Made by a program: the position numbers and the translations under genes
Origin: Octopus vulgaris
Lineage: Eukaryota
Direction: 5' to 3'
Assembly: GCA_951406725.2 (NCBI GenBank)
Contig: OX597815.1
Span: forward strand, 61,876,001-61,940,000
Length of the DNA: 64,000 nucleotides
Notes under the pieces: generated by a model
What the model saw: the letters and a program-made list of their open reading frames with translations, nothing else
What the model was told of the DNA's origin: nothing
The model's database searches: none
Shown: positions 159 to 56,782 of the stretch, piece after piece
How positions within the stretch are numbered: position 1 is the stretch's first letter
Layout of the letters: each line of letters starts with the position of its first letter

Positions 159-433
159 TATTGTGTCTGGAGAGAGTCATTCTCTTTTAGTGTCTTATTA
201 TTTAACACACACACCTGTTCGATTTCCAATCATTTACTTCTTTATTTTTTCTAAAATTTTCGTTGCGTCTTGTAACCTTTTCAATAGTCGTTGAGAGTGA
301 ACGACTACTGAAAAGGTTGCAAGACGCAATGACAATTTTAGAAAAAGCAAATAAGTAAATGAGTGGAAATCGAACCGGTGTGTGTGTTAAGTAATAACGC
401 ACTAAAAGTGAATGACTCTCCCCAGACACAATA
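159..433. repeat. Inverted repeat (~135-bp arms, 7-nt loop) of a short HHR-bearing PLE-pLTR-like element
   Basis: 159-292 is the reverse complement of 300-433 with scattered mismatches; the same family recurs at 55760-55895 and 56654-56782. Confidence 0.9.
251..287 (-). ncRNA. Minimal type I hammerhead ribozyme, U3-A8 variant
   Basis: Minus strand reads CUA-UUGAAAA-G-GUUAC-AAGAC-GCAAC-GAAA-AUUU-UAG; one stem II mismatch. The partner at 305-341 (+) is degenerate (CUGAAAA, GACA). Confidence 0.6.
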
Positions 434-460
434 ATACACAAGCACACACATATATGTACA

Positions 461-601
461 TATTATTATTGTTGTTATTATTATTATTATTATTATTATT
501 ATTATTATTATTATTATTATTATTATTATTATTATTATTATTATTATTATTATTATTATTATTATTATTATTATTATAATTATTATTATTATTATTATTA
601 T
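461..601. repeat. (ATT)n microsatellite
   Basis: Direct sequence. Confidence 0.99.
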
Positions 602-2987
602 TTCGTTTAGGCACAGCGATATTAATAACCTAGGGTTAGAACTCAACATACATATGCTCAGAACAAAGCAGCAGTCGAGTACAAAACCGTTAGGTTATGA
701 GTGCATTGTAAGCTAATGAAGTTTATGACATAATTTCTTATTCTCTTGTCATTAATCTAATTTCTTAAACACACACACACACACACACACACACACACAC
801 ACACACACACACACACACACACACACATTTATGTTAAAGCAGTGTCAGCGCCAAGCAATGTTTAGGTGTAAGCGAAGTTTAGGTTAGTTAAGATAAATTT
901 GTGACATATTTCAACTGCTGAAGGCAAGTTCACTGCAGTTAGTGTAGAGAAAAAGATTCTCTTTTATGGTAAAAAGGTGTAAAAATACCATATGCTTGCC
1001 CCTATCTGGGAATCTGACAGGGAGCAGCACGGGATAAATTTGGTGTTTTTACACCTGTTCACCATAAAAGAGAATTTTTTTTTCTCCGCAGCAACAGCAG
1101 TGAATTTGCCTTTAAAAGTTGAAATACGTCACAAACATATTTTAACTAACCTATATATAAATGCGTGTACCAGCCCGGGATCATTATTGTCCAAACGACT
1201 CCTCAACAATTTGACTGTCGACATTGTTACATCACTGCCATGATGTAGAGAGTTCAAGTTTAATTAAGATTATTTTTCAAGGTCTAATTATAGATGTTAT
1301 CTTCTTTGTGAAGAATGGAAAATATCATTCCAATGAAGGGACATTATGGTAAATAACCAGTAAATAATTAGTTCTTATGTATCTGTATCACATCAGATGC
1401 TTAGGTGGTACAATTTTTTCACGTTAGTTTGCTTCATTTAAATCATAAACGTTTGTTCTGGCATCTCACCAATAAATAAAGATGGACGTTCGAAATCATT
1501 CAGGATAATATCGAAGCAATCTTTGATTGCTTTAGCTCGTTATTTGGCTGTTAGCTATTATGGCATATATCAGGTTATATGAAAAACTAAATGAGATATA
1601 CAAATTTTACATTACATCTTAGCCGATTTTCCATTCGAACCAAAGAATTTTTTTTCCTTCATTCATCCGTTACCGATTTTACCTGTCGGTTGTAACTCAT
1701 GACAGAAATACCACGGTTTTTTTTTTTCGGTAACCGAAATTCCGATTTGAACTCAGAACGCCAGAAGAGAACTGCAAAACATTATCTCCTCCCTTTAACA
1801 TTTCCACCATCCTGGCCTGGTACTTTATTACTGATCCTGAAAGAATAAAGAGAATATATATATATATATATATATATATATATATATATATATATATATA
1901 TATATATATATATATATAGAGAGAGAGAGAGAGAGAGAGAGAGAGAGAGAGAGAGAGAGAGAGAGAGAGAGATAGAGAGAGAAAGAGAGAGAGATAGATA
2001 GATATGTGTGTATATACATACATATACATACATATGCATATGCAGTATCTTGTTCTCTTATTGGTGTGATCAACAAAGAAGTACTTCATCCAGTGAGATA
2101 AATATAATTCAAAATTCAGGATTTAAATTCAAACTACAATTAGTTTCATACTTTTGATAATACAATTGTCAGACAAGCTTGTATAGAGTTCCATTTATTT
2201 TCAGTCAAACATGCAGACTTACAATATGGCTGCTCTTTGACAAAAAGGAAGAAAGAGCCAGAAAGTACGAGAGGAAAAGAGTAAAAGCTAAAAAGTAAAA
2301 CGAGAAAAACTGAAAAAAGAAGTATAGTGGGAAAGAAGATAAGAGCTGCGTCCCTTTGGTCCGTTGGAATGGGAATTAATATGGTTAATGTAATCAAATC
2401 AACAGGTAAATTTTAAAATTTGGGTGACTTCATCCTTAATCGAGAGATAGTTATACTTATTAAAAATTTCGGATTTAGAATTCTGTAGGTCGGTAGAGTT
2501 CTTAGATATAGAAAGGATATGAGTTATTTCGGCATCTGCACTTTCATTACTCATTAACGGATGGCATGGATCGTTCTATGATGTTTCACTTGATGGTGTG
2601 TGGTGTATTGTTGGTTTCAGGCTAACTTTGTAGTTTTCTTCTTATCGGAAAGAAGACTGGTGGTTGGCGTATCTTTTTTAAAATCACTTTCGCATATACC
2701 AATATACTTTTTCTTTTGAGTTTTGTTATTTTGTAGAACTGAAGTGCTTCAACCTTCGAAAATGACTGAGCTAATCTTGCAAGCCTGCTCCAGTGGGCAA
2801 GTTTGAGTGCCTCCACAGTTACAGTTTACTTTGTTATTATCATCAGAACCAAGTCATGTCAATCTTGATTTCGCAGATTTACAATTAAGAGTATTATTAT
2901 TATTGCTATTATTATTATTATTATTATTATTATTATTATTATTATTATTATTATTATTATTATTATTATTATTATTATTATTATTAT

Positions 2988-3510
2988 TGAGTGAGAGAGC
3001 AGCGCATACCATCAAAGTGTCACTGAGGTACAACTATACGAAGCCCAATATATCCATCATTACTAACTGTCACATGCATCACAACTATGTGTGCGCGATA
3101 ATGGTGATCTCATATCAAGATAAACAGTATATGACCTTGCAGGTGGGGCCCAGTTAGAATTTTCTTCAGATTGAGTAGCCCATCCCGCTCAAAAGGTCCC
3201 TGAATAAGGGTTGTTTAATGATGTTGAACGAAACATCAATGTTTCCGGACCTGAAATACCCAACAGATTTGCTCTCAACACTTGGCTATGATACTCCCCA
3301 ACTACTTCTGCATGTGATCAGAGGTGCTCATATCGTCAGCCATTAAGGGACATGTTCAACTGGTTACAGTCAAACAACTGACAAACACATCTGTGGTAAT
3401 GAGCAAAATATTTGCTGTAATCTATCTTTTATACCAAGACAAAACATGTACATGATAACACATCCAATCAGTTAAAATCAGAGGCCATGATGCTACTACC
3501 TGTAACAGCA
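2988..3510. mobile_element. Unclassified interspersed repeat bounded on both sides by (ATT)n; possibly a decayed RLE-type LINE fragment
   Basis: Complex sequence embedded between (ATT)n 2893-2987 and 3511-3528, like the neighbouring R4/Dong pieces; no diagnostic protein motif confidently read. Confidence 0.3.
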
Positions 3511-3528
3511 ATTATTATTATTATTATT

Positions 3529-54915: not shown

Positions 54916-55031
54916 AATTCTCTGAAGAGGCCGTGGGGCATCTTTGTTAATGCCTCATTTATACCTGCCTTTATGGCTTATAGGTTAAATGAGGTATGAC
55001 TGTCCTCACTGCCGAAACAGCTGTCAGTTTT
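54916..55031 (+). ncRNA. Type I hammerhead with an 85-nt structured stem II domain
   Basis: CUGAAGA(54922)-GGC..GCC-GAAAC-AGCU-GUC(55025); palindromic stem III ACAGCUGU; stem I is weak. Confidence 0.72.
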
Positions 55032-55369
55032 GATTTATTTGCATATTGTATTTGTAATTTTTTACTTATATCTCTTTATCTTTTTACTTTTACTATTACT
55101 GTATATCTCATTTCATTTCATTTTATATATTGCCTTTACTCCTATGTAATGGTGTATTAAAGTATGGATTGAGTATCATCGGATAGTTGATGTTTTATTG
55201 ATTTAAATATGTTTCTCCATTCTCTAATTTTGTTGTATATATATATATATATATATATATAACGATTTCAGTGGCGTACTCCGGGAGGATGGTAACAGTA
55301 ATCCGTAGGTGTAAAAATCCAGGAATTGGTATCCAAGGCACTCAGTATCTGTGTGAGCGTGCGGTATAT

Positions 55370-55693
55370 AAAGTTAATCCAAACAAGAAAACACAAAAAA
55401 ACACAGCAACACGAGGACGTGGAACAAATAATGTATTATTGGACTCTCAGGAGAGAAGGGAAGGTGCTCACGAGGTCACATGTTGCTTTCAGCATGTGAC
55501 CTCGTGAGCACCGCCAGCAATTTTTTCCTCTGTCTTCCTTCTCGGGATCTTTCCTTCTCCTTTGTTTCCGACGAAGAGCTCCTCTCGAAACGTTAAACCC
55601 TCCTTCCCTTCTTTCCTGAGCGTCCAATAATACTTTATTTGTTCCACGTCCTCGCGTTGCTGTGTTTTTTGTGTTTTCTTGTTTGGATTAACT
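55370..55693. repeat. Nested inverted repeats (outer arms 55370-55464 / 55602-55693; inner hairpin 55463-55512) around a hammerhead
   Basis: Direct comparison; same family as 25465-25670 and 59190-59400. Confidence 0.9.
55564..55598 (+). ncRNA. Minimal type I hammerhead (CCGACGA core)
   Basis: GUUU-CCGACGA-A-GAG-CUCCU-CUC-GAAAC-GUU-AAAC. Confidence 0.7.
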
Positions 55694-55759
55694 ATATATA
55701 TATATATATATATATATATATATATATATATATATATATATATATATATATATATACAC

Positions 55760-56782
55760 TATTGTGTCTGGGGAGAGTCATTTTCTTTTTTTTTCTTGCC
55801 TTATAATATAAACACACACACCGGTAAAATCTCCACTTTTTTTCTTATTTTTATTTTCCTAAAATTTTCGTTGCATCTTGCAACCTTTTCAATAGTTTTC
55901 ACTCTGTCCGTTAATTACATTGCGTTCTCTTTTGTTTGATTGTGCGCATCTGTGTGGATCAGTGTTTGTGTGTGTGTGCATCTGTATGTACGCATCCTGC
56001 ATATTTATGTGCTTGCCTGTCCGTGTTTGTGTATTTTCTATGTATGTGTGTGTGAGCATGTGTTTGTATATGTATGCACCTCTGTCTCCTTGTTTGTGCA
56101 TGTCTGTCTGTGTGTGTGTGTGTGTGTTATGCAACTATGTACCATGTTTGTATGCATGGATGTGTATCGTTATATGTGTGGATCCGTGTCTCTATATGTG
56201 TCTGTTCTTATAGCCTATGTACCTATCCGTCTGTATGTTGATCTGTTTATTTATATTTTCTATGTGCTTACATACACGGATCCACACATATAAAGATGCA
56301 CATCCATATATACAAACATGGTACATAGTTGCATAACACACACACACACAGACATGCAGTCACAAGGAGACAGAGGTGCATACATATACAAACACATGCT
56401 CACACAAACATATGTAGAAAATACACAAACACGAACATGCATGCACATAAATATGCAGGATACGTACATACAGATGCACATACATATACACATATGCATA
56501 CACACACATATATACATACATACACATGCAAATACACATACATACATACGTACATGCATGCATGTATAGGCACACACACACAGACACTGACCCATACACA
56601 TGCGCACAAACAAACAAAAGGGAACGCAGTGTAAATAACGGACAGAGTCAAAACTATTGAAACGGTTGCAAGACGCAACGAAAATTTTAGGAAAATAAAA
56701 ATAAGAAAAAAATTTTACCGGTGAGTGTATTATATTATAAGGCAAGAAAAAAAAAAGAAGAGGACTCTCCCCAGACACAATA
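55760..56782. repeat. ~1-kb inverted duplication (arms 55760-56189 / 56274-56782): HHR element plus captured flanking DNA
   Basis: Reverse-complement match; the two translated low-complexity ORFs mirror each other. Confidence 0.92.
55859..55895 (-). ncRNA. Minimal type I hammerhead, U3-A8 variant, intact stems
   Basis: CUA-UUGAAAA-G-GUUGCA-AGA-UGCAAC-GAAA-AUUU-UAG; the partner at 56654-56690 (+) has A9C. Confidence 0.7.

What the first reader, a model, noticed from the sequence alone, without database searches (positions are those of the whole stretch)
159..56782. Ribozyme palindromes share one geometry: outward-facing HHRs with the fold-back point 5' of the ribozyme
Seen: in all five two-HHR palindromes (159-433, 29379-29530, 33108-33441, 33627-34114, 55760-56782) the left arm has the HHR on minus and the right arm on plus. 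Known: PLE insertions often carry an inverted, 5'-truncated pLTR. Inference: a fold-back or template-switch step during integration. Transcription in either direction gives a long dsRNA hairpin that masks its own ribozyme and would be an ADAR/Dicer substrate.
Basis: partly seen in the sequence, partly recalled or inferred. Interest (0 to 1): 0.7.

Follow-up and report, generated by a model that had tools for sequence, protein, structure and literature searches.

The report
Head-to-head Penelope stubs, one family spliced
The five mirror-image ribozyme pairs are real, back-to-back ends of Penelope-type jumping genes, a layout already known for these elements; in one family both halves lack the element's intron, which likely means one spliced message was copied twice into a single DNA break.

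Summary
All five palindromes are real and outward-facing (head-to-head). They belong to four families. Genome-wide, close opposite-strand hammerhead pairs were head-to-head in 28 of 28 cases. This layout is already described for Penelope-like elements (PLEs), and the scan noted it before here (e1-8669363) and, with splicing, in another genome (e1-9506236).

Family F3 (33027-33440) is the front end of a Hydra-type PLE. Its arms carry the exon-1/exon-2 joint of a 1.27-kb intron (315 spliced versus 55 unspliced exact sites). In 59 head-to-head pairs, 57 have the tail on exactly one arm. Either arm can be the longer one at the centre (17 versus 12). Paired arms share alleles (466 of 480 comparisons), and no spliced/unspliced mix was found.

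Simple fold-back of one cDNA cannot give this. Two target-primed copies of one sense RNA, joined near its 5' end, likely do. This argues against the published antisense-template idea, at least for these stubs.

The dsRNA/ADAR/Dicer claim is untested. The ribozymes are minimal motifs, two of them broken, and are not shown to be active.

The parts
81..294 (-). F1 left arm with tail (PLE 3' repeat); hammerhead motif with U3-A8 core at 254-284
294..434 (+). F1 right arm, tail-less; hammerhead motif 308-339 with broken core
29379..29452 (-). F2 left arm, tail-less; hammerhead motif 29416-29445 (C at core position 4)
29457..29580 (+). F2 right arm with tail, followed by (TA)n; hammerhead motif 29464-29493
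33027..33277 (-). F3 left arm with about 80-nt tail (33027-33107); spliced exon-1/exon-2 joint at 33256|33255; hammerhead motif 33207-33242
33277..33440 (+). F3 right arm, tail-less; spliced joint at 33293|33294; hammerhead motif 33307-33342
33430..33508 (.). (TA)n tract between the F3 and F4 insertions; another (TA)n lies left of F3 (32908-33021)
33508..33852 (-). F4 left arm with about 55-nt tail (33508-33562); hammerhead motif 33739-33771; unit of a 364-nt tandem-forming non-coding element
33850..34114 (+). F4 right arm; hammerhead motif 33969-34001; ends where a LINE-like fragment (34113-35060) begins, so its tail status is unknown
55760..56140 (-). F5 left arm (same family as F1), tail-less; hammerhead motif 55862-55892; inner limit approximate
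56300..56816 (+). F5 right arm with partial tail; hammerhead motif 56657-56687 with a core change; inner limit approximate
55365..55700 (.).

Best explanation
The palindromes are insertion products of Penelope-like retrotransposons in which two copies of the element's ribozyme-bearing front end are joined head to head, likely because both ends of one DNA break primed reverse transcription on the same sense RNA. Shown by sequence: one arm ends at the short end and the other carries the tail; either arm may be the more truncated; the two arms share alleles and splice state; in F3 the short arms lack the 5'-UTR intron, and nearly all stop at or inside the inferred transcription start. Inferred steps: (1) the GIY-YIG endonuclease cuts both strands in (TA)n; (2) each 3' end primes at one of two internal start sites on the RNA, as shown in vitro for an anole PLE (PMC11167929); (3) both cDNAs run towards the RNA 5' end, through an uncut ribozyme; (4) their 3' ends are joined through short homologies, blunt joins or filler. 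Each arm's 3' end is tied to the target, so the 5' ends meet in the middle, and the fold point therefore lies 5' of the ribozyme. When the template is the spliced mRNA, the product is a 300-450-bp stub without ORF, probably dead. The ribozyme pair is likely a passenger.
For: Tail on exactly one arm: F3 57 of 59 pairs, F2 17 of 18, F4 15 of 17. Longer arm at the centre: tail arm 17, tail-less arm 12, equal within 5 nt 28; 8 and 8 among intron-bearing loci (read from the table). At the recurrent 11-nt overlap joint the tail-less arm owns the centre base in 7 of 10. Allele sharing: 466 concordant and 14 discordant comparisons, 118 discordant expected at random; 11 of the 14 are that centre base. 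In a first, similarity-ranked set, 28 variants were shared against 40 private; none of 2000 permutations reached this. Intron: exon 1, GT donor, 1272 nt, AG acceptor in L191, with the same layout in L194, L199, L200, L202 and in the sister subfamily. Exact spliced joints 315, unspliced acceptors 55, reversed-pattern controls 0. Both arms spliced in 38 pairs with no intron-bearing partner in 71 loci; partner arms reaching the intron were unspliced in 7 of 7, with no spliced joint in 50 loci; chance of no mix about 0.002 under random pairing. L222 has the same odd joint in both arms. Of 20 copies with sequence upstream of the inferred start, 17 keep the intron. Central joints: 31 with overlap of 2 nt or more, 14 blunt or 1 nt, 14 with filler. 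Linked ORF with RT and GIY-YIG motifs.
Against: No experiment shows two primings on one RNA molecule; two RNAs from one source gene in one cell would share alleles too, and gene conversion between arms was not excluded. The window's own F3 pair differs at a common polymorphic site. One spliced copy (L423) extends about 15 nt upstream of the inferred start, so the start is not absolute. The two F3 count patterns differ in length and content, so 315:55 is rough. The F3 sample was chosen on a spliced joint and cannot show arms that begin at the ribozyme cut site. The two pairs in L368 look like one duplicated insertion. The 7-of-10 centre ownership does not differ from 50:50 (p=0.34); it only shows that both kinds occur. 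No spliced form was seen for F1/F5 or F2 or F4, and no ORF was linked to F2 or F4. Between 13 of 71 (F3) and 15 of 29 (F1) loci have no inverted partner.
Confidence: 0.68

Rival explanations
1. Simple fold-back: one target-primed cDNA folds at its 3' end and copies itself, giving the second arm.
For: Explains allele and splice-state sharing directly. A near-palindromic 11-nt stretch at the F3 5' end gives a recurrent joint in 10 of 59 pairs. Compatible with the 17 pairs in which the tail arm is longer.
Against: Cannot give a tail on the shorter arm when the longer arm has none: 12 of 59 F3 pairs, 7 of 10 recurrent joints, 8 intron-bearing loci, and similar cases in F2 and F4. A hybrid, with two RNA primings and a fold-back bridging the centre, is not excluded and is counted under the best explanation.
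Confidence: 0.1
2. A free hairpin or palindromic DNA intermediate with two tailed arms forms first, and the endonuclease trims one tail on integration.
For: Gives shared alleles and a tail at either end. PMC8557442 ascribes the tail to EN-mediated resolution of an intermediate. Would allow either arm to be longer.
Against: PMC11167929 maps the two tail limits to two reverse-transcription start sites with target priming on both strands. Two-tailed pairs are rare: 1 of 59, 0 of 18 and 1 of 17.
Confidence: 0.12
3. Self-priming on an antisense template makes the head-to-head palindrome and explains intron retention (hypothesis of PMC3846280).
For: Proposed from the same head-to-head layout. Intron-bearing F3 copies exist, and the other families gave no test.
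Against: F3 arms carry a precise GT-AG joint of the sense strand, which an antisense RNA would not have unless transcribed from an already intronless copy; the ends cluster at the sense start. In F1, 7 of 11 copies starting at one site have an extra G there, as a copied cap would give (3 of the 7 are ambiguous at joints).
Confidence: 0.05
4. Assembly artefacts, or two independent insertions landing side by side.
For: No long read was available, and no contig bridged the window's centre by 31 letters on both sides.
Against: Arms differ by 4-12%, carry a tail on one side only, and repeat the same rule at dozens of loci in four families. Independent insertions would not share alleles or avoid tail-to-tail order. 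Short-read contigs of other DNA runs show left-arm to right-arm joints of the same kind (21-28 letters on the short side, weak).
Confidence: 0.03

Closest known systems
Insertion units of endonuclease-bearing PLEs with inverted 5'-truncated pLTR and tail (PMC8557442 Fig. 2 legend and passages; Pen2a_Av in PMC3846280; D. virilis Penelope in PMC2377424)
   Same: Inverted truncated copy at the 5' side, head-to-head order, tail at one end only, hammerhead in the repeat, short first exon and 5'-UTR intron upstream of the ribozyme.
   Different: Here most F3 copies are ORF-less two-armed stubs, and the commonest class lacks the intron, whereas the papers stress intron retention. Tails are about 55-80 nt rather than 30-40. 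The F3 intron is 1.27 kb rather than 75 bp.
Hydra clade of PLEs (PMC8557442 section 11)
   Same: P0001 has DKT, CxCX5C, CxxC and CxH motifs, no CCHH, a C-terminal GIY-YIG-like domain, a hammerhead, and (TA)n targets.
   Different: The RWK motif reads KWK; there is a long Asn-rich linker; clade placement was not tested on a tree; Pfam gave no significant hit.
Minimal type I hammerheads of metazoan PLEs (PMC4209133)
   Same: Short palindromic helix III, extra base before helix II, U3-A8 core variant (F1/F5). The paper already mentions dual motifs 100-700 bp apart on opposite strands.
   Different: F2, F4 and F6 mostly have C at core position 4, which I did not see in the two parts of four read; activity untested.
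Anole Poseidon element in vitro (PMC11167929)
   Same: Two internal RT start sites that bound the tail, cutting and extension on both strands, uncut RNA as template.
   Different: The parts read (1-2 of 4) do not explain inverted arms or test spliced templates; different clade.
Non-LTR retrozymes (bioRxiv 10.64898/2026.07.22.740005; PMC7229834, listing only)
   Same: F4 is a 364-nt non-coding, tandem-forming unit with a type I hammerhead and PLE-type ends.
   Different: F4 copies are mostly one unit plus a part, often with an inverted arm; circular RNA not shown.

Membership tests
EN+ PLE insertion with inverted pLTR | Inverted 5'-truncated copy adjacent to the 5' end (head-to-head) | tested here: met
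EN+ PLE insertion with inverted pLTR | Tail extension at one end only | tested here: met
   57 of 59, 17 of 18 and 15 of 17; longer than the 30-40 bp in print
EN+ PLE insertion with inverted pLTR | Hammerhead motif in the terminal repeat | tested here: met
   two of ten motifs have broken cores
EN+ PLE insertion with inverted pLTR | Repeat linked to an RT plus GIY-YIG ORF | tested here: met
   F3: L227, L229, L220. F1/F5: endonuclease end upstream in L105, L107. Not found for F2 or F4 in the flanks fetched.
EN+ PLE insertion with inverted pLTR | Intron retained in genomic copies | tested here: inconclusive
   Kept in 17 of 20 copies with upstream sequence and at 55 acceptor sites; absent at 315 joints in the short class
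EN+ PLE insertion with inverted pLTR | Target-site duplication | not tested
   Most flanks are (TA)n, where it cannot be read; no empty site examined
Hydra clade | DKT in place of DKG; CxCX5C linker; CxxC and CxH; no CCHH | tested here: met
   read in P0001 against the description
Hydra clade | RWK motif | tested here: inconclusive
   KWK at that place in P0001
Hydra clade | (TA)n targeting | tested here: met
   flanks; not counted formally
Hydra clade | Phylogenetic placement | not tested
   no reference sequences fetched
Active hammerhead ribozyme | Self-cleavage | not testable with these tools
   none of six single motifs folds as a hammerhead; minimal motifs cut poorly in PMC4209133
Non-LTR retrozyme (F4) | Two consecutive units each with a complete hammerhead | tested here: inconclusive
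   seen at L333 among 28 loci; not in the window
ADAR/Dicer substrate | Transcription across both arms, edited reads or small RNAs | not testable with these tools
   no run on record as RNA, and only contigs were served

The most novel reading that the evidence does not exclude
PLEs copy one RNA twice, from both ends of the break, and the spliced capped mRNA is a common template. It can yield only dead head-to-head stubs, because copying starts just behind the ribozyme. Full-length copies come from read-through RNA whose downstream intron mostly stays in. Intron retention in PLEs would then follow from where copying starts, not from an antisense template.
Probability: 0.5. Interest if true: 0.62.

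Novelty: new variant of a known kind. Interest (0 to 1): 0.42.

Why it matters
How PLEs form inverted ends and why they keep introns are named as open in PMC8557442 and PMC3846280. The F3 family gives countable genomic tests (one tail per pair, either arm longer, shared alleles, no mixed splice state, spliced sense template) that disfavour simple fold-back and the antisense hypothesis and make a clear prediction for the existing in-vitro system. The geometry itself is ordinary for PLEs. Any role as a dsRNA source is unshown. I found no paper reporting spliced two-armed PLE stubs in six searches. The library lacks most subscription papers; Arkhipova 2003 and 2006 and Evgen'ev and Arkhipova 2005 were seen only as citations, and no supplements were read, so a prior mention is possible.

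Tried and rejected
Rfam scan: no hammerhead family among the 150 rows shown of 352. Pfam on two F3 ORFs: no significant hit. My first hammerhead descriptor gave 10 hits against 0-6 in shuffles and missed three of the ten motifs outright (one search found five of the ten; the second descriptor found two more and the F6 copies, with 0 hits in 19 of 20 shuffles; the F4 left motif and the two broken ones were read by eye). Sequencing runs: no RNA holder listed, which is no evidence on expression. Only contigs were served, so editing, small RNAs, start sites and long-read support could not be examined; letter differences are other family copies and were not read as editing. The splice joint was not checked in RNA. 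A common first exon for F1/F5 and F2 was looked for and not seen. Truncation at the ribozyme cut site: none of 59 shorter arms starts there, but the sample is biased. A host gene around the palindromes: the ORF list showed only mobile-element and simple-repeat frames (read by eye, not scanned), which does not exclude an intron location. Other inverted repeats (880-1153, 31747-32774, 47448-48545) had no intact motif in my scans, and no inward-facing hammerhead pair was found in the window. Search of earlier findings by sequence: nothing. Paper searches gave nothing new that was relevant.
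Full report
Observation. The window is G000:C2:61876001-61940000 in a 2.8-Gb animal assembly. Self-alignment confirms the five inverted repeats at the stated places, with arms 88-96% alike. Each left arm has a hammerhead motif on minus and each right arm on plus. F1 (159-433) and F5 (55760-56782) are one family with a U3-A8 core, a variant described in PMC4209133; their right-arm cores are changed. F2 and F4 have C at core position 4, which is the common family state. A sixth insertion at 55365-55700 has the same orientation, but its left arm is cut short of the ribozyme.

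Orientation genome-wide. Close opposite-strand exact hits were head-to-head in 14 of 14 (F3), 8 of 8 (F2), 4 of 4 (F1) and 2 of 2 (F4) cases. For F2 and F1 only the first 100 listed hits of 1549 and 1520 could be read. With truncated partners included, F3 gave 59 head-to-head junctions and one tail-to-tail, the latter between neighbouring insertions, at 71 loci. F2 gave 18 of 28 loci, F4 17 of 28 and F1 14 of 29. Arm differences, one-sided tails and repetition across four families make assembly error unlikely. Read support is weak, because only short contigs were served.

What the elements are. The F3 repeat lies directly before an 837-aa ORF in L227 and L229 and behind a truncated ORF in L220 that is 95% identical over the 362 aligned RT residues. 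The protein shows DKT, CxCX5C, CxxC and CxH motifs and no CCHH, matching the Hydra clade as described in PMC8557442; the RWK motif reads KWK, and no tree was built. F1/F5 follows the end of a GIY-YIG endonuclease in L105 and L107. F4 is a 364-nt non-coding tandem unit. No ORF was linked to F2.

Splicing in F3. Long copies have a first exon of about 30 nt, a GT donor, a 1272-nt intron and an AG acceptor 13 nt before the ribozyme core. The sister subfamily has the same layout. The window's two arms join exon 1 straight to exon 2. Exact counts are 315 spliced joints and 55 unspliced acceptors, with reversed controls at 0. The longest arms stop within about four bases of one point upstream of exon 1, which I read as the transcription start (inference). 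Of 20 copies that reach two bases further, 17 keep the intron, two are the arms of one insertion with A/T filler, and one (L423) is spliced yet extends about 15 nt further, a counter-example.

How the two arms relate. I took all 71 loci behind the first 100 listed spliced joints. Of 59 pairs, 57 have the tail on one arm, one has none and one has two. The longer arm at the centre is the tail arm in 17, the tail-less arm in 12 (7 by more than 75 nt; two are probably one duplicated insertion) and equal in 28. At 11 polymorphic sites the arms agree in 466 comparisons and differ in 14, against 118 expected. Eleven of the 14 are the centre base of an overlapping joint, two come from a deletion, and one is the window's own pair. 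Both arms are spliced in 38 pairs, with no intron-bearing partner. In 50 of the 51 intron-bearing loci, partners that reach the intron are unspliced in 7 of 7, and L222 has one odd joint in both arms. The one-tail rule also holds in F2 (17 of 18) and F4 (15 of 17).

Mechanism. A cDNA that folds back can only copy what it already holds, so a tail on the shorter arm rules out simple fold-back for those pairs. The anole element cuts and extends both strands and starts copying at two internal sites that bound the tail, using uncut RNA (PMC11167929). The simplest reading is that both ends of one break prime on one RNA, one at each site, and the two cDNAs are joined near the RNA 5' end; 31 of 59 joints show overlap, 14 are blunt and 14 have filler. 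This makes head-to-head order obligatory. Use of one molecule is inferred from allele and splice-state sharing; two RNAs from one source gene, or later conversion, could mimic it. A fold-back that only bridges the centre remains possible. PMC3846280 proposed self-priming on an antisense template for the same layout and for intron retention; precise sense-strand splice joints argue against that for F3. From general knowledge, not from a call: first-exon recognition depends on the cap, which could explain why the downstream repeat in read-through RNA mostly keeps its intron.

The dsRNA claim. Four palindromes fold with 91-96% of bases paired, and in this geometry the antisense copy is always made first. 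Nothing shows that they are transcribed, edited or diced. None of six single motifs folded as a hammerhead, and such motifs cut poorly without a dimer or protein.

What was read. PMC8557442: passages and sections 11 and 15. PMC11167929: parts 1-2 of 4. PMC4209133: parts 1-2 of 4. PMC3846280: passages and section 11. PMC2377424 and PMC8969392: passages. bioRxiv 10.64898/2026.07.22.740005: part 1 of 5. PMC7229834: search listing only. No supplements were read; those of PMC8557442 may hold this family. I reached the spliced reading before consulting earlier scan notes; e1-9506236 and e1-8669363 agree but are unchecked notes, not independent support.

Verdict. The added value is the spliced, allele-matched, one-tailed F3 class, which bears on two stated open questions about PLE insertion. 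New variant of a known kind; interest 0.42.

Noticed in passing
L137, upstream of the exon-2 start: Unrelated, partly open-frame sequence is joined exactly at the F3 sister-subfamily splice acceptor; possibly a foreign exon spliced onto the element (compare e1-8670049). Source not found.
   Followed up: partly
L222:1150-1330: Both arms join exon 1 to the last 10 nt of the intron, a joint seen in no other locus examined.
   Followed up: partly
F1 family; window 294-300, L119, L300, L303, L304, L306, L318: 7 of 11 copies that start at one site have a G where long copies have C, as a copied cap would give; 3 are ambiguous at joints.
   Followed up: partly
window 29464, 33969, 55568: Three unrelated families share C instead of U at hammerhead core position 4; activity unknown.
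   Followed up: no
L227:5709-8222: The ORF has a long Asn-rich stretch between RT and endonuclease, as reported for rotifer Penelope elements in PMC3846280.
   Followed up: no
L224, L225, L227 (listing): Exon 1 of the sister subfamily recurs in tandem with a period of about 1736 bp, up to four times.
   Followed up: no
L013 and L015: Two head-to-head insertions adjoin; in L013 they mirror each other around a (TA)n centre, giving a larger palindrome.
   Followed up: no
L176:6882-9170 (just left of the window): Broken PLE ORF with DKT and endonuclease motifs; another PLE RT fragment at window 8689-9180 (minus).
   Followed up: no
window 47448-48545: Element with about 277-nt inverted ends holding a (TTAGGG)n tract at 47855-48057; no hammerhead; probably a DNA-transposon derivative.
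   Followed up: no
window 880-1153 and 31747-32774: Further inverted repeats without an intact hammerhead; the second has nested inversions.
   Followed up: partly
window 25571, 44519, 59298, 62773: Single hammerhead-like motifs on minus with no second motif nearby.
   Followed up: no
window 4001-5641, 10823-12019, 34113-35060, 57592-58534: Open frames that look like a non-LTR reverse transcriptase, a mariner-type transposase and two copies of a LINE 3' fragment; labels by eye, not from a scan.
   Followed up: no
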